DNA of 64,000 nucleotides. Source: a virus. Below are positions 1 to 64,000 of this stretch, piece by piece. Each line of letters opens with the position of its first letter. Within the stretch, counting starts at the first letter, position 1. The stretch lies in IMG/VR virus record IMGVR_UViG_3300014137_000003; one strand, 5' to 3'. A model generated the notes under the pieces. That model made no database searches. It was given only the letters and a program-made list of their open reading frames with translations, and had not been told where the DNA came from. A program made the position numbers and the translations under genes.

Positions 1-333
1 GATGCAAATAGAGCAAATCAATCACATGTCAAATTCTCAGGTTTAGAATCTTGGCTAGAGGGGTATGTTCGAGGGACTTGTAAAAACATCTACAAAGCTC
101 TTAAGGGTGGTGCATTCAGTGCAGTAAATATCGCTGACTTCAACATGAAGGGTAGGGGTATGGTTTCCTTTGTAGATGAGTGGAAACGAATTGCGGAAGA
201 AGAAGGGCTTGAATACTACACTAATATTTATCTAGGTGTAACAGCCCGAGCAGGTTCTTTGGAACAAGAACTTGGGGTAGCTAAGAAGGAAATCATTATG
301 GTTTTTCGTTCGACTAAACCTGTGTGGGGTTAG
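1..333 (+). CDS. 3' end of a CDS starting upstream of the window; product unknown
   Basis: Frame +1 is open from base 1 to TAG 331-333 (own translation DANRANQSHVKFSG...RSTKPVWG*). The ORF track shows only the internal Met at 145. Confidence 0.5.
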   Translation, partial: DANRANQSHVKFSGLESWLEGYVRGTCKNIYKALKGGAFSAVNIADFNMKGRGMVSFVDEWKRIAEEEGLEYYTNIYLGVTARAGSLEQELGVAKKEIIMVFRSTKPVWG

Positions 334-361
334 TAGTAAGCTAATTAGAAATGGATAGTGT

Positions 362-646
362 ATGAGTAAAGAAGTAACTTGGAAGGTATTTGAAGAGGAG
401 AAAGCAAAACGCAAGTGGGTAGAAATTCAGTATCCACTTATCGGAACTCCTCTCTTTGAACATGCAACTGACTATATCGCTGAGCTAGAGAATGGTAGTC
501 GAGTTATGGTACGCAAGAAAGATAACTATGTATATGACAATGGTTCGGGTAGTGTAGCTAACGATAAGCAGATATCAGAATTACGAAAGAAAGCAGCTGA
601 GAAGTCAGAAATTAACCGTAAACGAAGAGATATGATTCTCTACTAG
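362..646 (+). CDS. hypothetical protein (94 aa)
   Basis: ATG ORF in the co-directional gene train with a basic C-terminus. No recognisable motif. Confidence 0.5.
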   Translation: MSKEVTWKVFEEEKAKRKWVEIQYPLIGTPLFEHATDYIAELENGSRVMVRKKDNYVYDNGSGSVANDKQISELRKKAAEKSEINRKRRDMILY

Positions 647-657
647 GAGGTAGGGTT

Positions 658-1017
658 ATGCTAGATGTAAGTAGGTTAGACGATAAAAGTTATGTTGGTA
701 ACTATATTAGAAAATCTCTCGAAGAAGTGTTAAAGTGGACAACTTTAAAGTGTGATTGGCGTAATGTAGATATCGAGATCCCTTATAATCTAGTTTTATC
801 TTCGGCAAGCCTACCTTGGGGGTATCGTTACAGATTGTACGATATTCCGAAGGGTACTATGACTTTGGTTAACATAGCAGAACCACAAGGTTTAGAGGAA
901 GTGTTAATTTCTCTTATCTCTAATTTCTGTACTACGAGGTGGGGTAACTTAGTGGATGGTAGAGCTACTCTGTATCATTTTGTACCCCAGGCTAAAAAAG
1001 CATACAACAGGAGTTAG
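658..1017 (+). CDS. hypothetical protein (119 aa)
   Basis: GGAGG (646-650) lies 7 nt upstream of ATG 658. No recognisable motif. Confidence 0.6.
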   Translation: MLDVSRLDDKSYVGNYIRKSLEEVLKWTTLKCDWRNVDIEIPYNLVLSSASLPWGYRYRLYDIPKGTMTLVNIAEPQGLEEVLISLISNFCTTRWGNLVDGRATLYHFVPQAKKAYNRS

Positions 1018-1056
1018 TAGGGTATCTTACTAACTTTTATTTTGAGGTATTAAATT

Positions 1057-1290
1057 ATGACATATAATGCTAAAGTATCGGAGGCTCATCAGTTAATCTC
1101 TTCTATGTTGATTTTGGATAGTAGAGAGGTGTTAGAGACTCCACATGGAATGGTAGCTAGATGGGTAGTAAATGAAACTTTATTCTATCTTGAAGCTATG
1201 TTAAATTATGGTTCTTGGCAGAATGCAGGTTTCAATGAACCTTGTTCTGAGGTTAAGACGTTTGCTCGGAGGTACGGGGTAGTTCTATGA
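1057..1290 (+). CDS. hypothetical protein (77 aa)
   Basis: GAGG upstream of the ATG. The stop overlaps the next start (ATGA at 1287-1290). Confidence 0.55.
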   Translation: MTYNAKVSEAHQLISSMLILDSREVLETPHGMVARWVVNETLFYLEAMLNYGSWQNAGFNEPCSEVKTFARRYGVVL

Positions 1291-1601
1291 CAGAGGTAAG
1301 CGAAAAGATTTCCCAACTAAAAGAGCTAAAAAGGTATTTAGCTCTCAAATATGACGATGAGGTATCGGTACATCTTAGCTATACAGCTTTCGATAGGGGA
1401 GGGGCATTCGGTGCTTGTTTGCTTGTCTCCTATAAGTGGAATTCTTTCAAGATAAAACTTGTTGGGGATGGCTCTGTTATCTACAGTTATAATTACTTAA
1501 ATAACCCGATTAGGTTTGTCTCTATTAGTGGAGTCTCTGTAGTAGAGTTTTGCAAGAAATTAAAATACGAATTACATCGTAGGTATAAAAAATTACATTA
1601 G
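1287..1601 (+). CDS. hypothetical protein (104 aa)
   Basis: ATGA start/stop overlap with the preceding ORF and GGAGG upstream. No motif. Confidence 0.6.
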   Translation: MTEVSEKISQLKELKRYLALKYDDEVSVHLSYTAFDRGGAFGACLLVSYKWNSFKIKLVGDGSVIYSYNYLNNPIRFVSISGVSVVEFCKKLKYELHRRYKKLH

Positions 1602-1605
1602 TTAG

Positions 1606-2358
1606 GTGGTAGTAGTAATGAGTTATGTTTTAAGTGAAAGAGACTTTAAAGTCTATTCGCAAGACTTTGCTCCCGTAGGATCTGTTAGTAGGACTTTGGG
1701 TGCAAATATAGGAGCCGTGTGGAGAGAGTTGTTATCTTTGGGTGATGACACTGTACACCGTGTCTCTGGGTTTGTATCTAGGGGTAGTAATGTCTATGCT
1801 TTAGTTTCGGATACTTATAAGGATGGTTTCAACCTTATAAACTGGGTAAAGGGGCACATCGATTTCAAACCTAAGGTATCTATCACTCCTATTAACTATT
1901 CTTTAGTTTTTGGTGAGGGTAGCTTACCTCGTGATATTGAAGAAATTCTAGAAGAGATTAACTCTGTTAGGTCTTTGTCACCGTCTTCTAGTCAGGTAAA
2001 CTCACCTTCTGAAGAAGTAGGTATCGCTTATGACGATGTTGCAACTTCTATCATCACTGAAGATTACTATTCTATTAGGGGTAGTGGTTTTGAGTTCTCA
2101 GTCTTTGATGAAGACAAAGAGTACATTATGGGACGTGGTTCTAACTGTGACTTTATTATCTCAGGTGTAGGGGTATCAAGACATCACTTGAAGTTCAAAT
2201 ATGAAGATGGTAGCTTGCAAGTGTTTGACTTAAACTCTACAAATGGTACTCGTGTAAACGGAAAACGAATTTATAGTGGCTCATGGGTAAACGTTGCTGA
2301 TGGTAGCACTATCAAGGTTGGTAGAGTTAACATGAGTGTAAATCTAAGGGAGGAATAG
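1606..2358 (+). CDS. FHA-domain protein (unassigned ~165-aa N-terminal region + C-terminal FHA)
   Basis: The C-terminal 80 aa carry the FHA signature (YIMGRGSNCDFII..VSRHHLKF..LQVFDLNSTNGTRVNGKRI). The start may be ATG 1618 rather than GTG 1606. Confidence 0.85.
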   Translation: MVVVMSYVLSERDFKVYSQDFAPVGSVSRTLGANIGAVWRELLSLGDDTVHRVSGFVSRGSNVYALVSDTYKDGFNLINWVKGHIDFKPKVSITPINYSLVFGEGSLPRDIEEILEEINSVRSLSPSSSQVNSPSEEVGIAYDDVATSIITEDYYSIRGSGFEFSVFDEDKEYIMGRGSNCDFIISGVGVSRHHLKFKYEDGSLQVFDLNSTNGTRVNGKRIYSGSWVNVADGSTIKVGRVNMSVNLREE

Positions 2359-2362
2359 TATT

Positions 2363-3037
2363 TTGGAGATACAAGGATTTACAGACATTGGTGTCCGTTA
2401 TAAAAATAATCAAGATACTTATCTTGTAATGAGGCTCAATATAGATGGTATTGAGTCTTGTCTACTTTTATTATGTGACGGTATGGGTGGTCTTGAGGAC
2501 GGTAGCTTTGCTAGTCAGAGCGTTGTAAAAGCTATTCGAGATTTGTGCGTTGAAGGTAACTTATCTAAGGAAAGTGTACGAGAAGCAATAAATAATGTTA
2601 ACTCTATGCTCTTAGATAAGTATGGTAGTGTAGGTAAGCAGTGTGGGACGACTTGTTCTGTCTTAGTTCTTTCTGAGGGGACTTATTGGGGGTATCATAT
2701 CGGTGATTCTCGTCTTTATCATTTTAGAGATAAAAACTACAAAATCTTGACAGAAGACCACACAGCCCTAAATATGAAACGTAAGCGTGGAGAGGTTATC
2801 ACTCCAGAGATTGAAAGACGTTATCGTTCTACTTTGTCGAGGTGTGTTGGGGTAGTTAAGAATCCTCGGTTAGATTACCTTGAGGGTAGTTACTCTGAGG
2901 GAGATACTTTTGTTGCTTGCTCTGATGGTTTTTGGCACTATTGGGATATGTCTTTAGACAACTTAGAAAATTCTATTGAATTGGTAAAATCTAAAGGCGA
3001 ACGAGATAACATTTCGGTAGTGAGCGTGGAGGTTTAG
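2363..3037 (+). CDS. PP2C/PPM-family Ser/Thr protein phosphatase
   Basis: PPM motifs NQDTY, LLCDGMGG, GTTCSVLVL, HIGDSRLY, LTEDHT and ACSDGFW. TTG start 4 nt after the FHA gene stop. Confidence 0.85.
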   Translation: MEIQGFTDIGVRYKNNQDTYLVMRLNIDGIESCLLLLCDGMGGLEDGSFASQSVVKAIRDLCVEGNLSKESVREAINNVNSMLLDKYGSVGKQCGTTCSVLVLSEGTYWGYHIGDSRLYHFRDKNYKILTEDHTALNMKRKRGEVITPEIERRYRSTLSRCVGVVKNPRLDYLEGSYSEGDTFVACSDGFWHYWDMSLDNLENSIELVKSKGERDNISVVSVEV

Positions 3038-3038
3038 T

Positions 3039-5006
3039 GTGAAAGTTAATGATATTGTATTAAACAAGTATATTATCACAAAGATTATTTCAGGAGATGG
3101 AACTAATCGTAGGGGTATGTCAAACCTTTACAAAGCTAGGGATAAGGACTTAGGTATTTATTGGGCTATCAAGGAAATCATAAAGAATTCTGATGGTACT
3201 ATTTCACTTCAACAGAGGTCTCTTATTCGAGAAGCACAGATTATGCGGAAGCTCCAGCATCCTTCTATTCCTAGGATTGTTTCTATTGAGCAATTAGATG
3301 ACAGGGTTCTAATTATAATGGACTGGGCTGATGGTAGGTCTGTTGGTGAGTGGATTCGCTCTAGTGGAGCCATGCCTTTGCAACGAGGTTTGAATATCAT
3401 AAAAACTGTCTGTGGAGTAGTGGGGTATTTGCATAGTCGTCCTACTCCTATCTTTTACAGGGATATGAAACCTGAGAACATTATGTATGACCCATCTTCT
3501 AAGAGGGTAATGTTATTGGACTTTGGTATTTCTGTTGAGGTAGATTTCAGTAAACCTATCTCGGACAGGGTAGGAACTAAGGGGTACTACGATAAGTATT
3601 CTATTGCCCCAACAAAACGTGAGCTAGCTAATGGGGTAGGACCTAGGTACTTTGATTTACGTTCTGATATCTACTCTCTAGGTTGGACGATGTTCGAGAT
3701 CTTTACTGGAGTTAGCCCATATAACTATATTTTGCTTAAGTCTAGGAAAGTTGAGACAGTTATCTTATCTTTGCTTGAGAGTCGCTTACCAGAATTTGAA
3801 GATGAAGACTCTGAAAACCCAGAACTAAAAGAAAAGACGTGGTCTAAGTTTAGTGGTAGTTTAAGTAAATCTCTTCGTCACTCTTTAGAAGAGTTGGTTA
3901 CTGGAGGAGATATTGATGTATTTATCTCTAAAGCTATCAAAATTATTAAATCTGAGGTTTCTATTTTTGTCCCAGATGAAAATATAGTTAATCACTGTAT
4001 GACTGGGTTAGATAAAGAGTTACAAAAAGCCATTCACTCTCTTGGGAATACTTACATAGCCACAAGAGATGTAAGGGAGTACGCTAAGAATATCCCTCAA
4101 TCTTTGGCTGATGTAATTATAAAAGCTACTGAACCTGAACCAATAGACAGATTTCAATCCATCGAAGAATTACAAATTGCTCTTGAAGACCTAGAAAAGG
4201 TAGACAAGGGTTACAACAAACTTCTAAAACGAAGGGTAAACCAAGTAATCACTCTAGGAGTTTTGGGTATTGGCTTATGTTTAGGTTCTATTGCCCCTTA
4301 CATGGCTTATGAACAAGGGTTAAAGAACCAGTACCAGGTCTTAGTTGCGAATGCAAGTAAGTCAGGTAGTTTCTCGGACTACTTAAAGGTTATTGAGTAT
4401 GACCCTAAGGAGATTGACCCTTACTTTGGTTTGATTGACTCTATTAAAGCAGATGGGGTGTTCACCAAAGACGAAGAGAGTACAATGCTAGACTTAATTA
4501 ACCCTAACCTCCCTACCTTAGAAAAGAGTAAGAGGTACAAGGAGTTAGCTTTCGAGATTGGTCGTTTATACTGGTTGTACTATGACGGTGGTAAATCAGA
4601 GGAAATTGCAAGTAGGTGGTTTAAAGACGCCAAGGGTTACAATCAGTTAGCTGATGTTTTCTATTCTATTGGTTCTTTCCCTACGGCAGTTGTTAAATCT
4701 GCTAACGAAGGTTCTGATGCAGGAATGTATAAGAAACAATGGGAAATCTTAAACTCTGTAACTGGTCAATCAGAGTTAACAAGTTTACAGATAGCAAAAG
4801 CTCAGCTTTACTTGGTAGATACCTATACTAGTAGGCTAAGGTCTGATGGGGTATCTAAGGAAGATGTTCTATCTAAGCTTTCTGAAATTTCTAGTTTAGT
4901 TAATAGCTCTTCTAGTGGTGATTCTCGTCAATCTCGTCTAGCTAATGAGCTTAAAAAATCTCTTCCAGAGGTTTTAGAAAAGGTTGAGGTGGCTTACAGT
5001 GTTTAG
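3039..5006 (+). CDS. Hanks-type Ser/Thr protein kinase with one TM helix and a ~230-aa helical ectodomain
   Basis: Kinase subdomains: WAIKEI (catalytic Lys), YRDMKPENIMY, LLDFGIS and SDIYSLGWTMFEIFTG. TM helix VITLGVLGIGLCLGSIAPYMAY. GTG start directly after the PP2C stop. Confidence 0.85.
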   Translation: MKVNDIVLNKYIITKIISGDGTNRRGMSNLYKARDKDLGIYWAIKEIIKNSDGTISLQQRSLIREAQIMRKLQHPSIPRIVSIEQLDDRVLIIMDWADGRSVGEWIRSSGAMPLQRGLNIIKTVCGVVGYLHSRPTPIFYRDMKPENIMYDPSSKRVMLLDFGISVEVDFSKPISDRVGTKGYYDKYSIAPTKRELANGVGPRYFDLRSDIYSLGWTMFEIFTGVSPYNYILLKSRKVETVILSLLESRLPEFEDEDSENPELKEKTWSKFSGSLSKSLRHSLEELVTGGDIDVFISKAIKIIKSEVSIFVPDENIVNHCMTGLDKELQKAIHSLGNTYIATRDVREYAKNIPQSLADVIIKATEPEPIDRFQSIEELQIALEDLEKVDKGYNKLLKRRVNQVITLGVLGIGLCLGSIAPYMAYEQGLKNQYQVLVANASKSGSFSDYLKVIEYDPKEIDPYFGLIDSIKADGVFTKDEESTMLDLINPNLPTLEKSKRYKELAFEIGRLYWLYYDGGKSEEIASRWFKDAKGYNQLADVFYSIGSFPTAVVKSANEGSDAGMYKKQWEILNSVTGQSELTSLQIAKAQLYLVDTYTSRLRSDGVSKEDVLSKLSEISSLVNSSSSGDSRQSRLANELKKSLPEVLEKVEVAYSV

Positions 5007-5424
5007 TTTATTTATTGTAATGTTGGTGAGTGGTTTACTACTTTTAGTCTTATCTGCAGTTCTTTATGTTGTATGGAATATTCCAGATGCAGTAGATGAG
5101 CTAAGTGGTAAAAAACGTAAAAGGCAGATAGAAAAACTACAAAAGGCAAGTATGGCAATTGGGGCTACTGGTGTTGTAGCTAGTACAACTCAGATGTTTA
5201 AGGATAGTGAGGAAGAAGAAGAGATTACAAATCTTATTCAAAATGCTCGTAATTCTTACACTGGTGAAGTACATTCTGATACTGACCCTTTAGAGGAAGA
5301 AGCTACTGGTATCATTCCTGAAGAACCTGTAGAAGAGTCCGTTGCTACGTTTTCCGAATCTGGTACTGTTGATAAGTTCGAGAATATTGTTATCTTGGAA
5401 GAGATAACTAATTTGGAGGTTTAA
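4984..5424 (+). CDS. small membrane protein with an acidic C-terminal tail
   Basis: N-terminal TM helix (FSLFIVMLVSGLLLLVLSAVLYVVW), a KKRKRQ stop-transfer and a Glu-rich tail. It overlaps the kinase stop. The more likely start is GTG 4999, behind GAGGTGG. Confidence 0.6.
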   Translation: MRWLTVFSLFIVMLVSGLLLLVLSAVLYVVWNIPDAVDELSGKKRKRQIEKLQKASMAIGATGVVASTTQMFKDSEEEEEITNLIQNARNSYTGEVHSDTDPLEEEATGIIPEEPVEESVATFSESGTVDKFENIVILEEITNLEV

Positions 5425-5425
5425 T

Positions 5426-8398
5426 GTGAATAAGAGAACTAAAAATAGTTTAACGACAGGTCTTTTATTAAGTACTGCCGTACTAGGGGTATATGCATCT
5501 AAGGGGTATGTATCTGCCGACGAGTTAACTAATAACCCCTCTACTTCGGTTGTTTCAGGTGCGACTCCTAGTACAGGGGTAGCATCGGTGGAAGTACCTA
5601 AGGTAGCTTCAACGGTGGAGGCAACTCCTACAGTTGAGGTAGCACCTAAGGCTGAGGTTACCCCTACAACAGGGGTAGCTCCTACTAATAATGTAGCTCC
5701 CACAGCTCCTACAGCTCCTACAGTTTCCGAAGCTCCTACAAACAAGGTAACTTCTCCAGCTGAGGCAGCTCCTACAACTGAGGTGAAACCTAGCGTAGCT
5801 GAAACTCCCAAGGCAGAAGAAAAACCTAAAGCTGAGACTCCTAAAGCAGAAGAAAAACCTAAAGAAAAGGTAATTACTAACGCTGAGGAGAAACCTAGCA
5901 TTGGCAAAGCTCCTAAATCTGAGGACGGCTCAACTTCAAAAGATGAAGAAAAACCTAACACTGGTGAGACACCTAAATCTGAGGAAACTCCAAAGGCGTC
6001 TACACCTACATTTAACTTCACCTTAGGTGGAAGGGATGAGTCTGTAACGGATACTCCTAGTAAGCTTGACTTAGGTGAGGAGGTTTCTTTCGAGAATAAC
6101 ACAAAACATACGGATGTCACTTATAAACAAGTTACATCTAATGGTGTTACTTTCGATTTAACAAAGAACAAAGTTAAACCTATCACTTCTAAGCTTATCG
6201 CAGTGTATAAAGACGATAAAGGTGAAGAACAGGAAGTCCAAGTTGCTGAAATTACTGGTACTAAGGTTTATAACCTAGATCTATCCTATAGTAACACAGG
6301 TAACTCAGTGACTTATACTTTTGATGTAAACCAACTATTGGAAAAAGACTCTTATCAGTCTAAGTATAAAGTCTTGGTAGATGGGGTAGAAGTTCAGGAC
6401 TTTGACTCTACAGAAGATGAAATCACTGGTACTCTTAATTTAATTAATAAATTAAGCGAAGGTACTCACACAGTTGAGATTGCAGGTCAATCGAAGTTTG
6501 GGGTAGTTGTTTCGGGTAAAGATACTGTTATTGTCCCTAAAGAGTTTGTTCCAAACCCATCTCCAGCACCTCTTCCTAATAGCGATAAGCAACCAGGAAC
6601 TGCGACTGGTGGGGATGTACCTTACAACCCAGTACCAGGGTATGACAACACTAACACCAACCCTAAAGTAAACCCTACGGTTACTCCTACAGTTAATCCT
6701 ACGGTTACTCCTGCAGGTGGTGGAGATGCTCCAGTAGTTAATCCGGATAGAGGTAACACTGGTGGGTTGACTCCAACTCCTAGTCCTATTCCTAGCCCAA
6801 GCAAGGATAACAATCCTTATGAAGTACCTACTGCTCCTCAACCAGCTCCAGTTAAAGAGCCAGTTAGGGGTGTTGAGGACGTAAGAGTTGGTGGAGTTTC
6901 TATTTATGGGGACGCTCCTAAACCTAGTGGGGTAGCTACTAATGGTGACACTACTACATTCACAGACCCTAAAAAAGTAGACATTAGGGTAAATCTTGAT
7001 ACGTCAGTAATTGATAGCTCTCGTACAGTACTTAAGCTTGTAGGTCGTGAGCAGGGTGAGATTGGTGCTAGTCAGTTTGTAGAGTTGAAAGACGGTGCTT
7101 ATAAGATTAAAGGTGTCGCAAAAGACGACTTCTACACTCTTACCATTAAAGCCTATGACAAAAACGGTAATTTGGTTACTGACACAGTTGAAACGTTCTC
7201 TGTGAACAAGGGAGGTTCTAAGTACTCTATCTCCAACAAAGGTCTTGCAGGTTCATCTGTTAAAAACCTCAATTCTAATCTTAAGATTGAGGAAACTAAC
7301 GTAGATAAAATCAAATCAGATAAAACTACTATTAAGGTATTCCTAGATGGTAAGCTTGTTGAGTTACCTAAAGATGCAATTAAAGTATCTAGGTCTGGTG
7401 GAGTTTCAGGTAAATGGAAGTACACTTACTCAATCAACAAGAATAAGTTTAAGGCTGAAGGGGTATACACTATTGAGGTTTATTCTGAATCTGAAACTGG
7501 TGTAAACTACAATTCAACTAAGAAAACTCTTCAATTTACGGTTGATAGGACTCCAGCGGAAATTTCTATTAGTGGTGTCCGTGATGGTGGTAGGTATAAG
7601 GCATCTAGCAAACGTATCACTATTGATATTCGTGATATCTCTGAGTTAAAATCTGTTAAAGCATTCTTGAATGGTAAAGAAGTAGAACTTGAATACGATT
7701 CAGAGACTGGTCTTTACTACTATGAAATGAAATCTAGTGGTAAGGGTAAAAATGAATTTGTTGTTGAGGTAGAAGATGCAGCAGGTAACGTATCTACTGA
7801 AACTGTTAAAGGTTTCTACTTAAGTGAAGATTTGGCTTTCTCTATCTTTAACGATGACAACTTGTACTGGCTACTAGGGGGTATCGCAGCAGCAACTGGT
7901 GGATTCTTAGGATTCTTGGCTCTACGTCGTAAACGTAAACTTGATGAAGAAGACCGCTTGGCTCTAGAACAGGCTGAGTTACTTGCAGCAAGTGCCTCAT
8001 CTAGTGGTTCTGAGACAGTAGGTGAATCTCCAGAGTCTTCTGATGAACGCTTTAACGTAGATGATATTCTACCAGCGGGTGAAGAAATTTTGTCTGTCTC
8101 TACTGAAGAAGTTCAAGATACTGATTTGGAAGGTTCTCAAGACGTTGAAGCAACTGATGTTCTTCCAGAAGATGAAGAGTTCTCAGAAGATAATGAAGCA
8201 ACAGATGTTATCCCAGAAGACGACGAGGACTCAGAAGATAACGAAGCTACTGACGTTATTGAAGACGACGAAGAATCTGAAGACAACCAAGAAACAGATG
8301 TTATCGAAGACTCTTCTGACGAAGACGAGTTAAAAACTGATGTTATTGATGAAGACTCTTCTGAAGATAACGAACCTACTGATATTGTAGAAGATTAA
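5426..8398 (+). CDS. large surface protein anchored by a C-terminal TM helix, with a hyper-acidic cytoplasmic repeat tail (no LPXTG)
   Basis: GTG start behind GGAGG. Signal peptide, then a Pro/Thr/Ala/Lys-rich low-complexity region and a long beta-rich middle part. TM helix LYWLLGGIAAATGGFLGFLAL followed by RRKRK, then a 150-aa Asp/Glu tail with six TD-containing repeats. Confidence 0.8.
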   Translation: MNKRTKNSLTTGLLLSTAVLGVYASKGYVSADELTNNPSTSVVSGATPSTGVASVEVPKVASTVEATPTVEVAPKAEVTPTTGVAPTNNVAPTAPTAPTVSEAPTNKVTSPAEAAPTTEVKPSVAETPKAEEKPKAETPKAEEKPKEKVITNAEEKPSIGKAPKSEDGSTSKDEEKPNTGETPKSEETPKASTPTFNFTLGGRDESVTDTPSKLDLGEEVSFENNTKHTDVTYKQVTSNGVTFDLTKNKVKPITSKLIAVYKDDKGEEQEVQVAEITGTKVYNLDLSYSNTGNSVTYTFDVNQLLEKDSYQSKYKVLVDGVEVQDFDSTEDEITGTLNLINKLSEGTHTVEIAGQSKFGVVVSGKDTVIVPKEFVPNPSPAPLPNSDKQPGTATGGDVPYNPVPGYDNTNTNPKVNPTVTPTVNPTVTPAGGGDAPVVNPDRGNTGGLTPTPSPIPSPSKDNNPYEVPTAPQPAPVKEPVRGVEDVRVGGVSIYGDAPKPSGVATNGDTTTFTDPKKVDIRVNLDTSVIDSSRTVLKLVGREQGEIGASQFVELKDGAYKIKGVAKDDFYTLTIKAYDKNGNLVTDTVETFSVNKGGSKYSISNKGLAGSSVKNLNSNLKIEETNVDKIKSDKTTIKVFLDGKLVELPKDAIKVSRSGGVSGKWKYTYSINKNKFKAEGVYTIEVYSESETGVNYNSTKKTLQFTVDRTPAEISISGVRDGGRYKASSKRITIDIRDISELKSVKAFLNGKEVELEYDSETGLYYYEMKSSGKGKNEFVVEVEDAAGNVSTETVKGFYLSEDLAFSIFNDDNLYWLLGGIAAATGGFLGFLALRRKRKLDEEDRLALEQAELLAASASSSGSETVGESPESSDERFNVDDILPAGEEILSVSTEEVQDTDLEGSQDVEATDVLPEDEEFSEDNEATDVIPEDDEDSEDNEATDVIEDDEESEDNQETDVIEDSSDEDELKTDVIDEDSSEDNEPTDIVED
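8147..8398 (+). repeat. six in-frame tandem repeats of ~42-48 bp encoding E-A-T-D-V-I/L-P/E-E-D-D-E-x-S-E-D-N
   Basis: Read directly: EATDVLPEDEEFSEDN / EATDVIPEDDEDSEDN / EATDVIEDDEESEDN / QETDVIEDSSDEDE / LKTDVIDEDSSEDN / EPTDIVED*. Confidence 0.9.
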
Positions 8399-8400
8399 TT

Positions 8401-8433
8401 AAGATAGCCCTTAATTGGGTTATCTTTTTTTAT
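8401..8433 (+). terminator. rho-independent terminator
   Basis: AAGATAGCCC-ttaatt-GGGTTATCTT hairpin followed by a T-run. Confidence 0.7.
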
Positions 8434-8461
8434 TTGCCACAAAGAGTGGAGGGGGTATAAG
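8434..8461 (+). promoter_or_regulatory. possible sigma-A promoter for the ardC operon
   Basis: TTGCCA (8434-8439), a 16-nt spacer, then TATAAG (8456-8461). The -10 overlaps a GGGGTA copy. Confidence 0.3.
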
Positions 8462-8529
8462 TTCTATTTAATTATCTTTGAGATTATTATATACTAGGTA
8501 TAGAAAAACTTTTGGAGGTATTTTGGTTT

Positions 8530-9552: not shown

Positions 9553-9571
9553 AAAGATAAGGTGGAGTAAT

Positions 9572-9901
9572 ATGCAACAATTTGTTTTAATTCGTGTCAC
9601 AAAGAACACTAACGTATATGATGGTCTTTTGAGGGAAGGTGACTTTATTCTCGGACCATCTTCAACTATTAGTGTATTGGTTAATCACTCCAGTTCTTGG
9701 AACTCAAATCAGATGGACTGTAAAGCAGCAACAGTTGAAGAACTTAAAAACTGTCGTGCAGGTCACATAAGGTTCCATCTTTTCGAGAGTGCAAATCTAG
9801 CAGGCTTTAGACGTATCCTAGTAAGCAAGGAGTCTGCTCTTGAGTTTATCAAAAAGTATGGTATTAACTTATCATCGCAAAAGTATTACGAGAAACCCTA
9901 G
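9572..9901 (+). CDS. hypothetical protein (109 aa)
   Basis: ATG 9572 preceded by AAGGTGGAG. The upstream part of track ORF 9410-9901 overlaps ardC in another frame and is probably not translated. Confidence 0.55.
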   Translation: MQQFVLIRVTKNTNVYDGLLREGDFILGPSSTISVLVNHSSSWNSNQMDCKAATVEELKNCRAGHIRFHLFESANLAGFRRILVSKESALEFIKKYGINLSSQKYYEKP

Positions 9902-9954
9902 TTAGGGGTACCTAACTCTGCAATAAATTAGTTAGTTCAGAATTTTGCTTATTT

Positions 9955-60910: not shown

Positions 60911-60927
60911 TAGGAAAGGATTGGCAA

Positions 60928-63900
60928 ATGTTTAGAAAATTTGTTAATAGGTTATTAAGTTTAGGGTTAATCTTTATACTGTTAGGTGGTACTATAGTAC
61001 CTAGCCTTAACAGTGTTGTTTTTGCGGATGATGATAGTTCAGTAGTTACCTCTGACGAAGAGGATACTGGTTCAGATAAGTCAGATAGCAAAAAAGAGGA
61101 CAGTAAGAAAGACAGCAAGAAAGATAGCGAAGGTAACGAAAAGGGTGCAAAGTCTGACACTAAGGGTGCATCTTCTGACGGCTCTGCTAATAGTAGGGTT
61201 TCTACTTATATTAACTTCGCAGAAGGTAAGACTTTAGATTCGGCTTTAGTTAAGAGCTTGAATACTGAGCAACTCCGTTTTATGGGGGTATTCCTCAGTA
61301 ACTTCTATACTCCATGGATGACTGACCTCGGTAGTGGTAGTGATAAGACTTCTAAGGCAGCTCAAGAAGCTATGCAAACTGCCCTCAAAGACTATGCAGG
61401 TTTCGATGAAACTACTGCTAAAACCTTTGCAAACTACTTGCAGGGTATTACTAGGGCATCAGCTCAAAAGTTAACTCTTCGCTTTAAAGGTAAGCAGTCT
61501 GATGCTAAAACTGTAGACGCCCCTAAAGATTCTAAGATTAAAGGAAAAGAGTTTACTTATGCTGACTTACTTCTTATGGCTAGTGGGTATGTTTATGAGC
61601 ATAAGAAAGATCCAAGTTTTGAATCTTATGGTGGTAAGGACTACGGTGAAGGTGATTACCGTTATGGTTATCTAGGTTTTGAGAACTCTGACGGTTTCCA
61701 ACCCGTATTTAGTTTCGATACTCAAGCTAAAGATAATACAGCATCTATGGTAGCTTTCCTTAAAGCTATGGAAATGGTGGATACTGACAAAGGTTACGGT
61801 TTCGCAGCCTTAGACTTTAAGGACAAAGAGATTGATGTAACTGCAGAAGGCTTTAAAAAGTTGCTAGAGACTGTAGGAGAGAAGAACTTACAAAGTGGTT
61901 CCATCTATGGTGCACCCCTTAAGGTTTCTGCCTTTGGTGATATCATTTGGATGGGAGCAAACCACCAATATGTAATTCTTCCAGGTGCGATGAATCCCTT
62001 TACTTGGCAACGTACCGACAAGGATGGTAAAGATTACGGTAAGGCAGGTAATGCTCTTAACGTAGCAAATGCTCAAATGTTAGCCCATATTGGTAACAAC
62101 TCGTTGGGTAGTGTGAGCAAGGAAGAAGAAAAAAAGAGGGGTACGTTCTATGAACTATCACCACAAAACGGTGATCCTTTCCCTATGTCGAAGAGGGGCG
62201 AGGTTACTGACCTTAGGTTGGTAATTGGTTCTTCTGTCACTGATACCCAGCACTGGGGGGATACCTTGGCAGGTGCCTTTGGTAACAACAGCTCAGCTCA
62301 AGATAAACTCGGTCAGGCAATTAAGAAGGACTTCTTAAAACAACGTGGTCTAGACCTTAATGATAAAACTAAATTCTCTGGTGAGTATAATTCCCTTTAT
62401 GATATCTTTAGGGACGACAGTACAAAGCTACCTACTTTGGGGTATTCAGATGGCAAGGTTAATGTAATGGGTGGTCTTGCCTTACTTGATAGCTCAGGTT
62501 CTTATGGTTCTAAAAGCGATACTGGTGACTCATCTGAAGACTCTTATGGTAAAACTGATGATGAAGGTGGTAAATATAACCTAGTCCAAAAAGCAGATAT
62601 CATCAACGAAGCAGGAGATGGCTTTGAAAGTGCGTTTGGTAGTGCTAACGTTTCAGGAAATACTTGGGGTAACTCCTACAAAGAAACAAAAGACCAAGGT
62701 TATGCAAAATTAGATTCTTCAGGAACTGCTAAAACTACTTGGAAATATCTCTACACTACTTATCTTGTTGCAGGGTTAACAGATAACGGTAAGTTTGCAG
62801 GTGGCGACTACTTGGGGTATCGTATTAACTACCCAGCATCAGGGAATGGTAAAAATAAAGGTTTGCCAGATATCACAGGTGAATCTATTAACCTCTCAAA
62901 AGAAGATGAAGATGACTCAGTAACTAAAGCAATTCGTGACTGGTTGTATTACTTGTTACACCCTACAGACGGGTTTAAATATTTTGTAACTTGGATTACT
63001 AATAAAATCAAGGCTTTCATTATCGGTTGGCACAATGACATGGCTGGTACAGAAGGTGTTGGTGTACTTCCAGGTACTACTAAATATATTGGTTTTAGTG
63101 GGTATGTAACTACACCAGAACTTCAAGATATGTCTTGGACGAACGCCATGTTAAACTGGTATAAGTCAATCATTATTTACCTTATCATTGGTTTCTTTGT
63201 AATTATGATGGCTTATACACTACTAGGAATTTTAACATTCCAGAAATCAATACTTGGATTAGTTCTGTTTTCTGTGCTTGTATATACTCCTATCATAGTT
63301 GTAACTCAGTCTGTTAACTTGTCTAACAGGTTTGCAAACTTTGTATTTGGTGACAAGTTCGCCTATTGGGGTATCGTTCAGCAACAATCTTACTTCGCAG
63401 ACTTGGCTGACTCTATTGACTCATCTAATTCAACTTATAAGAATTACTTGTTAAATCTTTATAACGAGAATGCAAAAGAGTCAGGAAATCAGGGTGGCGA
63501 CAACATTGTACTTAGGTGGCAAGCTCCTAAGAAGATGGCAAACTTGGTTATGTCTAAAAATGAAGAGAACATCTACTCGGATGACTTCAAGCAAATGATT
63601 CAAGTGGTTACTGGTGGTAAGAACTCGGTTGAACACTTTACTGGTAATACATCTTCTACATATCTATATCGTTCATATACGGATATTGCAAACGTTTCAA
63701 TGTTTATGTATGGGGATCTCGTTTCTAACGGTCAAGCACGTGAAGGTGTAGACACTAAGACGGATACTTCTAACACTACTAGATGGTCTAAGGGTCTTAA
63801 AGACAACTGGGCTAACTTCACAACTAGGTATACAGACGATAGGAAAGACGGATATGGGGTAAAAGACTCTGAGGGTTCTACCGATGGTAGCCAAGCTTAC

Positions 63901-64000
63901 CGTGTAAGGTTGCCACTTGCAGGTAATATCTACTCAGATGCAGCGGATGTTGCAAAACAAGGTACGATTAAAGACTTAACACTAGGTAAGTATGTGGGTA
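60928..64000 (+). CDS. very large secreted/membrane protein, 5' part (>1,020 aa, runs off the window)
   Basis: Own translation from ATG 60928 (GGAAAGGA upstream) finds no stop to base 63999. Signal peptide LLSLGLIFILLGGTIVPSLNSVVFA, an acidic/Lys-rich linker and a ~700-aa ectodomain. Two TM helices lie near 63170-63300 (SIIIYLIIGFFVIMMAYTLLGIL / ILGLVLFSVLVYTPIIVV). It is not in the ORF track because it lacks a stop. Confidence 0.7.
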   Translation, partial: MFRKFVNRLLSLGLIFILLGGTIVPSLNSVVFADDDSSVVTSDEEDTGSDKSDSKKEDSKKDSKKDSEGNEKGAKSDTKGASSDGSANSRVSTYINFAEGKTLDSALVKSLNTEQLRFMGVFLSNFYTPWMTDLGSGSDKTSKAAQEAMQTALKDYAGFDETTAKTFANYLQGITRASAQKLTLRFKGKQSDAKTVDAPKDSKIKGKEFTYADLLLMASGYVYEHKKDPSFESYGGKDYGEGDYRYGYLGFENSDGFQPVFSFDTQAKDNTASMVAFLKAMEMVDTDKGYGFAALDFKDKEIDVTAEGFKKLLETVGEKNLQSGSIYGAPLKVSAFGDIIWMGANHQYVILPGAMNPFTWQRTDKDGKDYGKAGNALNVANAQMLAHIGNNSLGSVSKEEEKKRGTFYELSPQNGDPFPMSKRGEVTDLRLVIGSSVTDTQHWGDTLAGAFGNNSSAQDKLGQAIKKDFLKQRGLDLNDKTKFSGEYNSLYDIFRDDSTKLPTLGYSDGKVNVMGGLALLDSSGSYGSKSDTGDSSEDSYGKTDDEGGKYNLVQKADIINEAGDGFESAFGSANVSGNTWGNSYKETKDQGYAKLDSSGTAKTTWKYLYTTYLVAGLTDNGKFAGGDYLGYRINYPASGNGKNKGLPDITGESINLSKEDEDDSVTKAIRDWLYYLLHPTDGFKYFVTWITNKIKAFIIGWHNDMAGTEGVGVLPGTTKYIGFSGYVTTPELQDMSWTNAMLNWYKSIIIYLIIGFFVIMMAYTLLGILTFQKSILGLVLFSVLVYTPIIVVTQSVNLSNRFANFVFGDKFAYWGIVQQQSYFADLADSIDSSNSTYKNYLLNLYNENAKESGNQGGDNIVLRWQAPKKMANLVMSKNEENIYSDDFKQMIQVVTGGKNSVEHFTGNTSSTYLYRSYTDIANVSMFMYGDLVSNGQAREGVDTKTDTSNTTRWSKGLKDNWANFTTRYTDDRKDGYGVKDSEGSTDGSQAYRVRLPLAGNIYSDAADVAKQGTIKDLTLGKYVG

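What the first reader, a model, noticed from the sequence alone, without database searches (positions are those of the whole stretch)
1..64000. Hyper-abundant, almost perfectly strand-polar hexamer GGGGTA (about 1 per 430 bp, in all codon phases and in spacers)
Reading the + strand by eye, I counted about 148 GGGGTA. Examples are 155-160, 274-279, 819-824, 8452-8457, 9905-9910, 12549-12554, 16301-16306, 34503-34508 and 34559-34564. I found only 6 copies of the complement TACCCC (983-988, 13715-13720, 16314-16319, 24215-24220, 29553-29558, 46213-46218).

Spot checks of base composition give G roughly 0.20-0.23 and A and T about 0.3 each. From that I would expect on the order of 10-20 copies, so the enrichment is roughly ten-fold.

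- The flanking bases vary: any base precedes the hexamer, and T > G > C > A follows it.
- The hexamer starts at codon position 1 (GGG GTA at 274), position 2 (AGG GGT ATG at 154) and position 3 (TGG GGG TAT at 817), and it also occurs in non-coding spacers. It is therefore a nucleic-acid-level signal, not a peptide repeat.
- My tally per 10 kb is about 27, 21, 20, 17, 32 and 23, plus 8 in the last 4 kb.
- There are clear holes: none between ~38,810 and ~40,810 (the IS-like insertion), none in the highly expressed gene 53130-53948, and low density in the two LPXTG genes.

Known G-rich polar oligomers (Chi, FtsK KOPS, SpoIIIE SRS) are far sparser than this. The motif also resembles the GGTAG core of the RfaH ops element on the non-template strand, and GGGGU is Shine-Dalgarno-like.

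Because every gene lies on the + strand, this window cannot separate replication-, transfer-, transcription- and translation-level explanations.
Basis: partly seen in the sequence, partly recalled or inferred. Interest (0 to 1): 0.85.

Follow-up and report, generated by a model that had tools for sequence, protein, structure and literature searches.

The report
One-strand GGGGTA signal in giant plasmids
A six-base DNA word, GGGGTA, occurs about every 400-500 bases on one strand only of a ~181-kb element from human mouth bacteria and of its cultured relative, the 350-kb Bacillus thuringiensis plasmid pXO16; it looks like a previously unreported signal read by the elements' own DNA machinery, most plausibly their primase.

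Summary
GGGGTA occurs 153 times on the + strand and 8 times on the - strand, and it is the commonest hexamer in the window. Shuffles give 24 (dinucleotide-preserving) or 51 (synonymous-codon). The complement is at chance, so the anomaly is a 3-6-fold + strand excess.

Selection acts on the DNA. 68 of 167 Gly-Val pairs are GGG-GTA, against 12.5 expected. No one-base neighbour is enriched. Spacing is more even than random.

The window belongs to a ~181-kb circularly permuted element. All called genes lie on one strand, and the polarity never flips over the ~97% I recovered. It is related to pXO16 (39% identity in the family A DNA polymerase, shared replication module). pXO16 carries GGGGTA 658:5 over 349.6 kb, while pBtoxis in the same host shows none of this. 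Related 215-262-kb oral elements use the variant GGGTATC.

A host-chromosome Chi site, a KOPS/SRS-type guide, an RfaH ops element and a Shine-Dalgarno mimic each fail at least one test.

My best mechanism is inferred, not shown. GGGGTA would be the start site of the element's own split DnaG-type primase (5'-GTA-3', like T7 GTC and T4 GTT). It would sit on the strand that is the lagging-strand template and possibly the transferred single strand. Confidence is about 0.4. I found no report of the motif in the papers I could read, and pXO16 makes it testable.

The parts
1..64000 (+). Field of 153 GGGGTA sites on the + strand, with consensus W-W-GGGGTA-T-Y.

Start positions: 60, 155, 274, 819, 941, 1276, 1781, 2078, 2170, 2689, 2849, 3112, 3422, 3581, 3633, 4848, 5486, 5503, 5576, 5672, 6383, 6500, 6929, 7460, 7878, 8452, 9262, 9905, 10318, 10669, 11058, 11274, 11973, 12046, 12549, 13778, 14858, 14981, 15813, 16301, 16770, 17071, 17648, 17679, 17896, 18525, 18742, 19264, 19890, 20181, 20406, 21435, 21921, 22209, 22800, 23243, 23855, 24609, 25022, 25380, 25448, 26012, 26512, 26994, 28006, 28258, 28678, 28954, 29362, 29777, 30939, 31628, 31694, 32057, 33006, 33092, 34177, 34503, 34559, 34880, 35804, 36499, 36930, 37127, 37697, 37727, 38272, 38783, 38799, 40817, 41143, 41300, 41419, 41447, 41779, 42723, 42907, 43201, 43334, 43713, 43819, 44308, 44398, 44975, 45005, 45039, 45250, 45780, 45933, 45954, 46557, 46677, 47103, 47802, 47896, 48312, 48527, 48671, 49386, 49619, 49838, 50511, 50846, 51008, 51546, 51569, 52132, 52799, 54280, 54950, 55415, 56042, 56503, 56708, 57282, 57360, 57610, 57618, 58165, 58597, 58752, 59319, 59702, 59731, 60149, 60832, 61285, 62138, 62439, 62666, 62814, 63368, 63856.
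   Evidence: Exact search, logo, null models, spacing CV 0.70-0.76, synonymous-site test.
983..48624 (-). The 8 copies on the other strand, seen as TACCCC on + at 983, 5659, 13715, 16314, 24215, 29553, 46213 and 48619. This is at or slightly above chance.
   Evidence: Shuffles expect about 3.6.
16301..16319 (+). GGGGTAtcttccTTACCCC, an intergenic inverted repeat built from one + copy and one of the rare - copies. It looks like a terminator hairpin.
   Evidence: Sequence context printed.
17679..17684 (+). Example of a site that doubles as a ribosome-binding site, 4 nt before an ATG. The same arrangement occurs at 18525 and 25022.
   Evidence: About 12% of window genes and 21% of pXO16 genes have GGGGT at -18 to -4.
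38805..40816 (.). The longest motif-free stretch (2,018 bp). It contains a 450-aa ORF (38988-40340) with no confident family match, and is probably recently acquired DNA.
   Evidence: About 4.8 sites would be expected, and the exact protein occurs only in the same sample.
52805..54279 (.). The second hole (1,481 bp), covering gene 53070-53948.
54046..55356 (+). DnaX-like clamp-loader gene, part of the element's own replisome.
   Evidence: Pfam DNA_pol3_delta2, E 1.7e-25.
28597..29928 (+). 5'-3' exonuclease (FEN-like), suited to Okazaki-primer removal.
   Evidence: Pfam 5_3_exonuc_N, E 3.5e-15.
1606..5006 (+). FHA / PP2C phosphatase / Ser-Thr kinase module, shared with pXO16.
   Evidence: Pfam hits and pXO16 annotation.
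30055..37933 (+). Antigen I/II adhesin plus a second LPXTG protein. The 14 motif sites here give near-normal density although local GC skew is about 0.
   Evidence: The gene pair is conserved in related elements.

Best explanation
**What is shown**
- GGGGTA is a sequence-specific signal specific to this element family, carried on one DNA strand.
- It is kept at high and unusually even density (about 1 per 400-530 bp).
- Selection overrides synonymous codon choice and even shifts dipeptide usage.
- It runs around the whole of a replicon in which all genes share one orientation.
- It is shared by a ~181-kb oral element and by B. thuringiensis pXO16. Related 215-262-kb oral elements use the variant GGGTATC.

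**What is inferred**
- The motif is the preferred initiation site of the elements' own split DnaG-type primase. This primase consists of a CHC2 zinc-ribbon protein and a separate Toprim protein, working with a DnaB-like helicase and a family A polymerase.
- The 3' triplet 5'-GTA-3' would play the role of T7 5'-GTC-3' and T4 5'-GTT-3'. The last base is not copied, and the primer starts pppAC.
- The G-run would template a C-rich, tightly pairing primer (pppACCCC) in an AT-rich genome.
- The G-rich + strand would be the lagging-strand template throughout if replication is unidirectional and co-oriented with the genes.
- If the + strand is also the strand that pXO16-type conjugation delivers as single-stranded DNA, closely spaced sites would let the complement be made quickly and discontinuously in the recipient. 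That would replace a single-strand origin.
For: **1. The signal is real and specific**
- 153 against 24-51 expected.
- It is the top outlier among all 4-7-mers.
- No one-base neighbour is enriched.

**2. Selection acts on the DNA**
- GGG-GTA encodes 68 of 167 Gly-Val pairs, against 12.5 expected.
- GGG is 17% of Gly codons overall but 50% before Tyr.
- The Gly-Val dipeptide itself occurs 167 times against 118 expected.
- Sites also lie in intergenic DNA and in the tRNA region.

**3. Spacing is more even than random**

| Sequence | CV of gaps | Random expectation | Longest gap | Random mean |
|---|---|---|---|---|
| window | 0.70-0.76 | 0.99 | 1,481 bp | 2,157 bp |
| pXO16 | 0.71 | 1.00 | 2,071 bp | 3,712 bp |

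This is what a requirement of 'no long stretch without a site' would produce.

**4. Polarity is uniform**
- It does not change over ~176 of ~181 kb of the oral element.
- It does not change over all 349.6 kb of pXO16, where the count is 658:5 and GC skew is positive in every 5-kb bin.
- This fits a single lagging-strand template.

**5. The signal belongs to the element, not the host**
- The same word occurs in a Bacillus plasmid and in an oral element.
- pBtoxis, in the same host as pXO16, has 10/5 per 50 kb, which is expectation.
- The Bacillus Chi AGCGG is not enriched in pXO16 (83 against 76).

**6. The machinery is present and conserved**
- CHC2 zinc-binding protein: Pfam Zn_ribbon_DnaG, the CPFH...CFGC motif, and PDB 1D0Q DnaG zinc-binding domain at E 4e-6.
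- Toprim protein: PDB 5VAZ DNA primase at E 7e-7.
- DnaB-like helicase and family A polymerase.
- Clamp loader, 5'-3' exonuclease, RNase HII and NAD ligase.
- The same set is annotated in pXO16.

**7. Published parallels**
- T7 primase uses 5'-GTC-3'. 5'-GGGTC-3' is a standard template, and G/T-rich flanks strengthen binding (bioRxiv 10.1101/266924).
- pXO16 transfers single-stranded DNA.
- Plasmids it mobilises need an intact, correctly oriented single-strand origin (PMC6199540).

**8. Variants.** GGGGTA and GGGTATC share the GTA core.

**9. Opposite-strand gene.** In the one such gene found in a motif-bearing relative, GGTATC is 3:0 on the replicon strand (P = 0.03).
Against: - No biochemical or in vivo evidence links the primase to the motif.
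- In the T7 control, the known primase sites are neither enriched nor polar in the T7 genome: GGGTC 39 against 55 on the other strand, TGGTC 79 against 62. I know of no precedent for genome-wide enrichment of primase sites.
- A B. velezensis 215-kb plasmid has the same helicase, CHC2, Toprim and polymerase module. It shows no hyperabundance (30/4 per 50 kb).
- Replication direction, and which strand is transferred, are unknown.
- The strand-level test rests on one 1.2-kb gene in the GGGTATC family. The full motif does not occur in that gene.
- DnaG-type primases normally read only three bases.
Confidence: 0.4

Rival explanations
1. Chi-like signal. The motif tells a helicase-nuclease travelling along the DNA from a broken end to stop degrading it. 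The enzyme could be the host's AddAB/RexAB or an element-encoded one. This would protect or mark the element's DNA as 'self'.
For: - It is polar and over-represented, and it lies on the G-rich strand, which is the usual orientation for Chi.
- Density-type selection with site turnover: only 38-52% of sites are positionally conserved at 72% DNA identity.
- The element encodes UvrD-like, SbcCD-like, DHH and non-specific nuclease proteins.
- Phages lacking recombination functions are known to enrich host Chi (PMC3784561).
Against: - The same word is used in different host genera.
- pBtoxis, in the pXO16 host, shows no enrichment.
- The Bacillus Chi AGCGG is not enriched in pXO16.
- The known Firmicute Chi sequences (AGCGG, GAAGCGG, GCGCGTG) are unrelated and 10-20 times sparser.
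- No AddAB/RecBCD-like gene was found in the element among the roughly 190 proteins scanned.
Confidence: 0.17
2. Directional guide or loading signal for the element's FtsK/SpoIIIE-family transfer ATPase. It would resemble KOPS, SRS or the Streptomyces clt repeats, making the correct strand or direction be pumped during conjugation.
For: - It is a G-rich polar 6-8-mer; AGGGGTAG in pXO16 recalls GGGNAGGG and GAGAAGGG.
- An FtsK/SpoIIIE-like ATPase is conserved: a 731-aa protein in the oral element, 26% identical to the pXO16 protein.
- pXO16 has no identified oriT or relaxase (PMC9673590).
Against: - No gamma (sequence-reading) domain was detected. Only PF01580 matched, and the motor domain ends about 30 residues from the C-terminus.
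- Polarity does not converge anywhere, whereas KOPS and SRS flip at origin and terminus.
- pUB110 is mobilised efficiently by pXO16 yet has no GGGGTA at all (PMC6199540).
- The B. velezensis plasmid has an FtsK-like homologue but no hyperabundant motif.
Confidence: 0.13
3. Transcription- or translation-level signal on the non-template strand or mRNA. One form is an ops-like recruitment or pause site for an antitermination factor on very long co-oriented operons. Another is an internal Shine-Dalgarno-like GGGGU.
For: - All genes are co-oriented, so the motif is always on the non-template strand.
- AGGGGTAG shares 6 of 8 bases with the first eight of the ops element GGCGGTAG.
- GGGGT sits at Shine-Dalgarno distance upstream of about 12% of window genes and 21% of pXO16 genes.
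Against: - The invariant TA is not explained by anti-Shine-Dalgarno pairing.
- The better match GGGGTG is not enriched, and GAGGA is depleted.
- 77-86% of sites are inside genes with no start codon after them.
- No NusG/KOW family appeared among 115 proteins scanned.
- In the one opposite-strand gene, the core stays on the replicon strand.
- ops elements occur once per operon, not every 400 bp.
Confidence: 0.1
4. The motif is something else on the DNA strand: a target for strand-specific modification or nicking, a site for an unknown DNA-binding protein, or the footprint of a context-specific mutation or repair bias.
For: - Most of the element's proteins have no known family.
- The element also shows other strand-specific word biases.
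Against: - A mutational bias would raise related words too, yet every one-base neighbour is at or below expectation.
- Even spacing and override of codon choice point to selection.
- Roughly 420-660 nicks per genome would fragment a strand that is transferred whole.
Confidence: 0.2

Closest known systems
Primase initiation sites of T7 gp4 (5'-GTC-3', extended 5'-GGGTC-3') and T4 gp61 (5'-GTT-3')
   Same: - A G-T-N triplet preceded by G's.
- It would be read on single-stranded lagging-strand template by a CHC2 zinc-ribbon domain.
- The element encodes the same class of primase together with a DnaB-family helicase and a family A polymerase.
   Different: - In T7 the sites are neither enriched nor strand-polar. 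Here a full hexamer is enriched 3-6-fold, at 19:1 to 130:1.
- The primase is split into two proteins.
- The specificity has not been tested.
Chi sites (E. coli GCTGGTGG; B. subtilis AGCGG; S. aureus GAAGCGG; L. lactis GCGCGTG)
   Same: - A short, polar, over-represented word co-oriented with replication.
- Selection acts on density rather than on individual positions.
   Different: - It is element-specific rather than host-wide, being absent from pBtoxis in the same host.
- The sequence is unrelated.
- It is 10-20 times denser than the 7-8-base Chi sites.
- No cognate helicase-nuclease has been identified.
FtsK KOPS (GGGNAGGG), SpoIIIE SRS (GAGAAGGG), L. lactis KOPS (GAAGAAG), Streptomyces TraB clt repeats
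   Same: - A G-rich polar oligomer.
- An FtsK/SpoIIIE-family ATPase is encoded by the element.
   Different: - There is no polarity switch at any origin or terminus.
- No gamma domain was detected.
- It is about 20 times denser.
- The motif is not needed for pXO16-mediated mobilisation of pUB110.
Single-strand origins and initiation sites of plasmids (sso, ssi, RSF1010 ssiA/ssiB with RepB' primase)
   Same: - Strand- and orientation-specific priming signals on transferred or displaced single strands.
- Some are read by a plasmid-encoded primase.
- pXO16-mobilised plasmids need an sso.
   Different: Those signals are one or two structured elements of 40-200 nt per plasmid. This would be hundreds of unstructured 6-8-nt sites.
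DNA uptake sequences (Neisseria DUS, Pasteurellaceae USS)
   Same: - Hyperabundant (about 1 per kb) short words maintained against codon preference.
- They also come in lineage-specific variants.
   Different: - DUS and USS occur in both orientations and often as inverted pairs in terminators.
- They serve uptake by competent hosts.
- Here the strand ratio reaches 130:1.
pXO16 (pBTHD789-1) of B. thuringiensis sv. israelensis, as the element family
   Same: - Common orientation of all CDS.
- Family A polymerase (39% identity).
- Topoisomerase II B/A, DnaB-like helicase and CHC2 protein in one module.
- Separate Toprim protein, FtsK-like ATPase and an FHA/PP2C/kinase module.
- HD protein, NAD ligase, non-specific endonuclease and surface adhesins.
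- The same GGGGTA field.
   Different: - The oral element is half the size (181 against 350 kb).
- Its host is different and unidentified.
- Its flank preference is W-GGGGTA-T, against A-GGGGTA-G/T in pXO16.
- Its adhesins are of the antigen I/II LPXTG type.
- Conjugation has not been shown for it.

Membership tests
Chi (RecBCD/AddAB regulatory site) of the host | The same word is over-represented and co-oriented with replication in the host's other replicons. | tested here: not met
   pBtoxis, in the same host as pXO16, has GGGGTA 10 and TACCCC 5 per 50 kb, against 6.9 and 3.6 expected. The host chromosome itself could not be fetched.
Chi (RecBCD/AddAB regulatory site) of the host | The word matches or resembles the Chi known for that host group. 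| tested here: not met
   The known Firmicute Chi sequences are AGCGG, GAAGCGG and GCGCGTG. AGCGG occurs 83 times in pXO16 against 76 expected.
Chi (RecBCD/AddAB regulatory site) of the host | The word attenuates the nuclease or stimulates recombination in an orientation-dependent way. | not testable with these tools
   This needs a high-molecular-weight plasmid DNA assay or an in vitro AddAB assay.
KOPS / SRS (FtsK / SpoIIIE guide motifs) | Polarity points from the origin to dif/terminus on both arms, and therefore flips twice per replicon. | tested here: not met
   There is no flip in ~176 of ~181 kb of the oral element or in all 349.6 kb of pXO16.
KOPS / SRS (FtsK / SpoIIIE guide motifs) | The translocase carries a C-terminal gamma winged-helix domain that reads the motif. 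| tested here: not met
   Only PF01580 (the motor domain) matched. Walker A lies at residue 456 of 731, leaving about 30 residues after the motor. A divergent reader domain elsewhere in the protein cannot be excluded.
KOPS / SRS (FtsK / SpoIIIE guide motifs) | A G-rich, highly skewed 7-8-mer. | tested here: met
   AGGGGTAG occurs 232 times against 11 expected in pXO16, and its complement was absent from the first 50 kb (38:0). GGGGTATC is 33:0 in the window.
DnaG/T7-type primase recognition site | A cognate primase with a CHC2 zinc-binding domain and a Toprim catalytic domain is encoded. | tested here: met
   Pfam Zn_ribbon_DnaG at 5e-12. PDB 1D0Q at E 4e-6 and PDB 5VAZ at E 7e-7. The same proteins are annotated in pXO16.
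DnaG/T7-type primase recognition site | A trinucleotide with a central pyrimidine (usually T) and an uncopied 3' base. | tested here: met
   The invariant 3' end of the motif is G-T-A; compare T7 GTC and T4 GTT (for T7). This shows only that the sequence is compatible.
DnaG/T7-type primase recognition site | The site lies on the lagging-strand template. | tested here: inconclusive
   The motif is on the G-rich, gene-sense strand everywhere. This is the lagging-strand template if replication is co-oriented with the genes. Replication direction is not known.
DnaG/T7-type primase recognition site | Primers actually start at the site. | not testable with these tools
   This needs a primase assay or mapping of primer 5' ends.
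RfaH ops element | A 12-nt GGCGGTAGnnTG in operon leaders, once per operon, with an RfaH/NusG paralogue. | tested here: not met
   There are 153 sites, mostly inside genes. No NusG/KOW family appeared among 115 proteins scanned.
Shine-Dalgarno-like internal sites | Enrichment follows the strength of pairing to the anti-Shine-Dalgarno sequence. | tested here: not met
   GGGGTG is 11 against 16 expected, and GAGGA is depleted (92 against 138). The invariant A does not pair. A minority of sites do serve as ribosome-binding sites.
pXO16-like giant conjugative plasmids (element family) | All CDS share one orientation, together with the pXO16-type replication and transfer gene set. | tested here: met
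   - Gene orientation: and for pXO16.
- Polymerase: 38.7% identity over 929 aa, E 6e-179.
- FtsK-like ATPase: E 2e-40.
- Shared modules.
pXO16-like giant conjugative plasmids (element family) | Self-transmissible by aggregation-mediated conjugation. | not testable with these tools
   The oral element is known only from metagenomes. It is filed as a viral contig in IMG/VR.
Inocle (giant oral Streptococcus extrachromosomal elements) | About 350 kb, GC 24-32%, two replichores with gene orientation switching at origin and terminus, and the InoC marker gene. | tested here: not met
   This element is ~181 kb, 37.6% GC and has a single orientation, unlike the description in PMC12340149. InoC itself was not searched for.

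The most novel reading that the evidence does not exclude
pXO16-type giant elements use a new kind of genome-wide 'distributed priming code'. Hundreds of evenly spaced, strand-specific 6-8-base sites would be read by their own split DnaG-type primase. After single-stranded conjugative entry the whole 180-350-kb strand could then be converted to duplex within minutes. During vegetative replication it would be copied discontinuously. This would do without a single-strand origin, and might help explain the fast transfer reported for pXO16, for which no oriT or relaxase has been identified. The GGGGTA and GGGTATC variants would mark co-evolving primase-site pairs.
Probability: 0.3. Interest if true: 0.9.

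Novelty: new variant of a known kind. Interest (0 to 1): 0.8.

Why it matters
**Link to a long-standing puzzle**
- pXO16 has puzzled plasmid biologists for decades.
  - It is 350 kb of mostly unknown genes, all in one orientation.
  - It transfers in minutes.
  - It mobilises DNA that lacks an oriT.
  - No relaxase or origin of transfer has been identified.
- I found no mention, in the papers available to me, of a hexamer present 658:5 on one strand.
- The motif is now tied to relatives that recur in human oral metagenomes.
- This gives a concrete, cheap handle on how these elements replicate or establish themselves.

**A testable system**
- The protein that reads the motif can be sought directly in a culturable, genetically tractable organism.

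**Practical uses**
- The motif and its variants are a simple sequence signature for recognising and binning this family in metagenomes. Relatives are currently filed as viral contigs, or in one case binned with a Mogibacterium genome.
- If the primase reading is right, this would be, to my knowledge, the first case of genome-wide selection for primase start sites.

Tried and rejected
- **DNA similarity searches.** Megablast of 25 kb against PLSDB plasmids and GenBank phages found nothing. The link to pXO16 appeared only with a protein search using the polymerase.
- **Inocle identity.** Rejected on size, GC content and replichore structure.
- **Jumbo phage identity.**
  - Against a phage: there were no PHROG hits for 10 proteins. 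No capsid, portal or terminase family appeared among the 25 of 32 PHROG families listed for 115 proteins. Partition, FtsK-like and adhesin genes point to a plasmid.
  - For a phage: a phage-type tail lysozyme domain and the IMG/VR listing remain unexplained.
- **Host identification.**
  - The antigen I/II homologues led only to further giant elements, not to a chromosome.
  - The 450-aa ORF of the motif-free stretch occurs only in the same sample.
- **Complementarity to 16S rRNA.** GGGTATCT is the complement of the 16S 785-806 region, but the logos do not extend further. I dropped this as chance.
- **Positional conservation.** Sites are only moderately conserved, so the motif does not consist of discrete regulatory sites.
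- **T7 control.** I hoped it would give a precedent for polar enrichment of primase sites. It does not.
- **Distributed oriT or transfer signal.** pUB110, which is well mobilised, has no GGGGTA.
- **Gene presence/absence correlation.** The B. velezensis 215-kb plasmid has both the primase module and an FtsK-like gene but no hyperabundant motif. It therefore does not separate the hypotheses.
- **More opposite-strand genes.** Two further look-ups in relatives found none.
- **Structure prediction.** The primase, helicase and FtsK-like proteins lie outside the window, so the tool would not accept them.

Full report
**1. The observation**

An exact search finds 153 GGGGTA on the + strand and 8 TACCCC. 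GGGGTA is the most frequent hexamer in the window. The window has 37.6% G+C and a GC skew of about +0.2 everywhere except 30-38 kb.

Expected counts from shuffles:

| Shuffle | GGGGTA expected |
|---|---|
| dinucleotide-preserving | 24.4 +/- 4.4 |
| synonymous codons within each gene | 50.8 +/- 5.0 |
| codon order permuted | 33.3 +/- 4.2 |

The + strand excess is therefore 3-6-fold, with z of 20-29. TACCCC is expected about 3.6 times, so the other strand is not depleted. Part of the striking polarity is simply G > C composition.

I scored all 4-7-mers against the synonymous-codon shuffle. GGGGTA and its extensions stand far above everything else (z = 18; next unrelated word TAGTGG, z = 9.8). 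None of the 18 one-base neighbours is enriched. The logo is W-W-GGGGTA-T-Y, with C depleted upstream. CpG depletion (observed/expected 0.58) partly explains that depletion.

**2. The signal is selected at the DNA level**

The window is 94% coding, all on the + strand. Sites occur in all three codon phases (68/38/34) and at higher density in spacers.

- Of 167 Gly-Val dipeptides, 68 are written GGG-GTA, against 12.5 expected from codon usage.
- GGG is 17% of Gly codons overall but 50% of those before Tyr.
- The Gly-Val dipeptide itself is over-used: 167 against 118 expected, with Val-Gly at 97.

Sites also occur at about normal density in the stretch that holds the tRNA genes.

Spacing is more even than random. 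The coefficient of variation of gaps is 0.70-0.76, against 0.99 for random placement (first percentile 0.83). The longest gap in the backbone is 1,481 bp, against 2,157 bp expected.

Two holes are real: 38.8-40.8 kb and 52.8-54.3 kb. The two LPXTG genes carry 14 sites in 7.9 kb, which is not clearly low, even though local GC skew is about zero. The motif is therefore not a by-product of skew.

**3. What the window belongs to**

There was no DNA-level match to known plasmids or phages. The same sequence recurs in many human oral metagenome assemblies as contigs of 180-188 kb with different start points. The genome is therefore circular or circularly permuted. It is listed in IMG/VR as IMGVR_UViG_3300008274_000007, 180,840 bp.

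I walked around this genome in 10-kb steps and recovered about 176 of ~181 kb.

- Every called gene is on the same strand.
- GC skew is positive in every bin.
- GGGGTA runs at 1-7 per kb, with TACCCC essentially absent.
- The composite count is 479 against 12.

There is no polarity flip.

Gene content:

- **Replication:** a family A DNA polymerase, a DnaB-like helicase and a split DnaG-type primase. The primase is a 172-aa CHC2 zinc-ribbon protein plus a separate 262-aa Toprim protein. There are also a clamp loader and type II topoisomerase subunits.
- **Okazaki-fragment processing:** NAD ligase, 5'-3' exonuclease and RNase HII.
- **Repair and recombination:** SbcCD-like, DHH, UvrD-like and SNF2 proteins.
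- **Transfer and partition:** an FtsK/SpoIIIE-like ATPase, ParB-like and actin-like partition proteins.
- **Other:** SmpB, tRNAs, signal peptidase, cell-wall hydrolases and antigen I/II LPXTG adhesins.

No capsid, portal or terminase family was seen. The element is not an Inocle by size, GC content or replichore structure.

**4. The key relative, pXO16**

The polymerase's best match among plasmids is the 350-kb conjugative plasmid pXO16 (pBTHD789-1, NC_018516.1) of B. thuringiensis sv. israelensis. Identity is 38.7% over 929 residues, with E = 6e-179.

pXO16 shares several features:

- the topoisomerase / helicase / CHC2 module;
- a separate Toprim protein;
- an FtsK-like ATPase;
- the FHA/PP2C/kinase module;
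- an HD protein, a ligase and a non-specific endonuclease;
- the single orientation of all CDS.

On its coding strand, GGGGTA occurs 658 times and TACCCC 5 times.

- There are 40-54 sites in every 25-kb bin.
- GC skew is positive in all 5-kb bins.
- The gap CV is 0.71 against 1.00 for random placement.
- The longest gap is 2,071 bp against 3,712 bp expected.
- The extended forms are AGGGGTA (461 against 51 expected) and AGGGGTAG (232 against 11).

pBtoxis, from the same host, has 10 and 5 per 50 kb, which is expectation. The Bacillus Chi AGCGG is not enriched in pXO16.

The signal therefore belongs to this element family, not to the host.

**5. Motif variants**

| Group | Loci | Leading word | Counts (+ : -) |
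|---|---|---|---|
| Relatives at 62% protein identity, and a third lineage | L018, L019, L030 | GGGGTA | 48:0, 47:1, 51:6 |
| Larger oral elements, 215-262 kb, including a contig binned as 'Mogibacterium' | L002, L032, L043, L044, L045 | GGGTATC | 29:0, 23:0, 21:0, 26:0, 18:0 |

The larger elements show this despite a lower GC skew (+0.07 to +0.15). The shared core is D-D-GGGTA-T-Y.

Individual sites turn over. Only 38-52% are positionally conserved at about 72% DNA identity, against 17% for all hexamers and about 30% for hexamers of the same composition. This is the behaviour of a density-selected signal.

A more distant B. velezensis 215-kb plasmid has the same replication module but no hyperabundance (30/4 per 50 kb).

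**6. At which level the signal acts**

*Against a translational or mRNA reading*

- The invariant TA is not explained by anti-Shine-Dalgarno pairing.
- GGGGTG, a better match, is not enriched, and GAGGA is depleted.
- Most sites are not followed by a start codon. The motif does double as a ribosome-binding site in about 12% of window genes and 21% of pXO16 genes.

*The only opposite-strand gene*

One gene on the opposite strand was found in a motif-bearing relative: a C5 DNA methylase at L031/L032 3759-4964. It carries GGTATC three times on the replicon's + strand (0.8 expected, P = 0.03) and never on its own sense strand. This points to a signal tied to the DNA strand. It is one gene only, and the full 7-mer is absent from it.

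*Against a host Chi*

See section 4. The known Firmicute Chi sequences are also unrelated.

*Against a KOPS/SRS-type guide*

- Polarity never converges.
- No gamma domain was detected in the FtsK-like protein.
- pUB110, which pXO16 mobilises well, has no GGGGTA.

*Against an ops element*

- Sites occur every 400 bp, mostly inside genes.
- No NusG paralogue was seen.

**7. Most likely mechanism (inferred)**

The motif ends in 5'-GTA-3', the same pattern as the T7 (GTC) and T4 (GTT) primase start triplets. T7's standard template is 5'-GGGTC-3', and G/T-rich flanks strengthen binding (bioRxiv 10.1101/266924).

The elements encode the matching class of primase and a full set of Okazaki-fragment enzymes. 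The motif lies on the G-rich, gene-sense strand around the whole circle. That strand is the lagging-strand template if replication is unidirectional and co-oriented with the genes. Even spacing of about 400-530 bp fits a need for regular priming.

The literature on pXO16 adds context (PMC6199540):

- pXO16 transfers single-stranded DNA within minutes.
- Plasmids it mobilises need an intact, correctly oriented single-strand origin.

A strand studded with primase sites would meet the same need for a 180-350-kb molecule.

Weaknesses:

- T7's own sites are not enriched or polar.
- The B. velezensis plasmid lacks the signal.
- Replication direction and the transferred strand are unknown.
- Nothing biochemical has been done.

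I put this reading at about 0.4. The rivals are a Chi-like signal at 0.17, a translocase guide at 0.13, a transcription or translation signal at 0.10, and another strand-level function at 0.20.

**8. Novelty**

Strand-polar over-represented oligomers are a known kind of feature. This one is new in four respects:

- its density, 10-20 times that of the 7-8-base Chi and KOPS motifs;
- its uniform polarity around a whole replicon;
- its ownership by a mobile-element family across host genera;
- its lineage-specific variants.

I found no mention of it in the pXO16 reviews or elsewhere in the library. The original 2015 sequence paper is not held, so a prior report cannot be excluded.

Noticed in passing
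window 1-64000; pXO16 (L047-L053): Other word biases look like restriction avoidance and differ between elements.

| Word | Window (observed vs expected) | pXO16 (observed vs expected) |
|---|---|---|
| GATC | 44 vs 145 | 1 vs 831 |
| TACGTA | 0 vs 19 | not avoided |
| TTCTGG | 1 vs 27 | 5 vs 55 |
| CCAGAA | not counted | 18 vs 92 |
| GCTGC | 1 vs 25 | 1 vs 31 |
| GCAGC | 53 vs 29 (enriched) | 5 vs 80 |

In the window GCTGC is avoided on the + strand while its complement GCAGC is enriched. In pXO16 both orientations of each pair are avoided.
   Followed up: partly
window 1-64000: A second polar, enriched word is TAGTGG: 58 against 20 expected, with 7 on the other strand. It is also seen in L039 but is not enriched in pXO16 (82 against 68).
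   Followed up: partly
window 38805-40816: A 2-kb motif-free stretch holds a 450-aa ORF with no confident family match. The exact protein occurs only in contigs from the same sample.
   Followed up: partly
L023 17123-17641; L041 16711-17499; pXO16 173139-173711 and 44525-45310: The DnaG-type primase is split. A stand-alone CHC2 zinc-ribbon protein lies about 5 kb from the helicase gene, and a separate Toprim protein lies about 30 kb away. The split is conserved in pXO16 and in a B. velezensis 215-kb plasmid.
   Followed up: partly
L025 64-2915 (element contig positions ~122.8-125.7 kb): The element has a cluster of five tRNA genes, including an ARAGORN call with a four-base anticodon. It also encodes SmpB and an ATP-cone/NrdD-like protein.
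   Followed up: no
L002 (CAKAFX010000005.1, 236-kb contig): A relative of this element family is binned in a public metagenome-assembled genome labelled 'uncultured Mogibacterium sp.'. It is probably an extrachromosomal element that was mis-binned or co-binned.
   Followed up: no
window 30055-37933; L030, L031-L033, L043: The pair of an antigen I/II adhesin and a second LPXTG protein is conserved, next to the 5'-3' exonuclease gene in two of them (L030, L043), in several giant-element families of 150-262 kb. This recalls pXO16's aggregation-mediated mating.
   Followed up: partly
L031/L032 3759-4964 (-): This is the only opposite-strand gene seen in any motif-bearing relative. It is a C5 DNA methyltransferase in the 262-kb family.
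   Followed up: yes
T7 genome (L034): T7's most strand-skewed words are pieces of E. coli Chi and CTG-rich words: GCTGGT 44:2, TGGTGG 37:1, CTGCTG 36:0. Its primase sites are not skewed.
   Followed up: no
window 16301-16319: One + copy and one rare - copy of the motif form an intergenic hairpin, GGGGTAtcttccTTACCCC.
   Followed up: no
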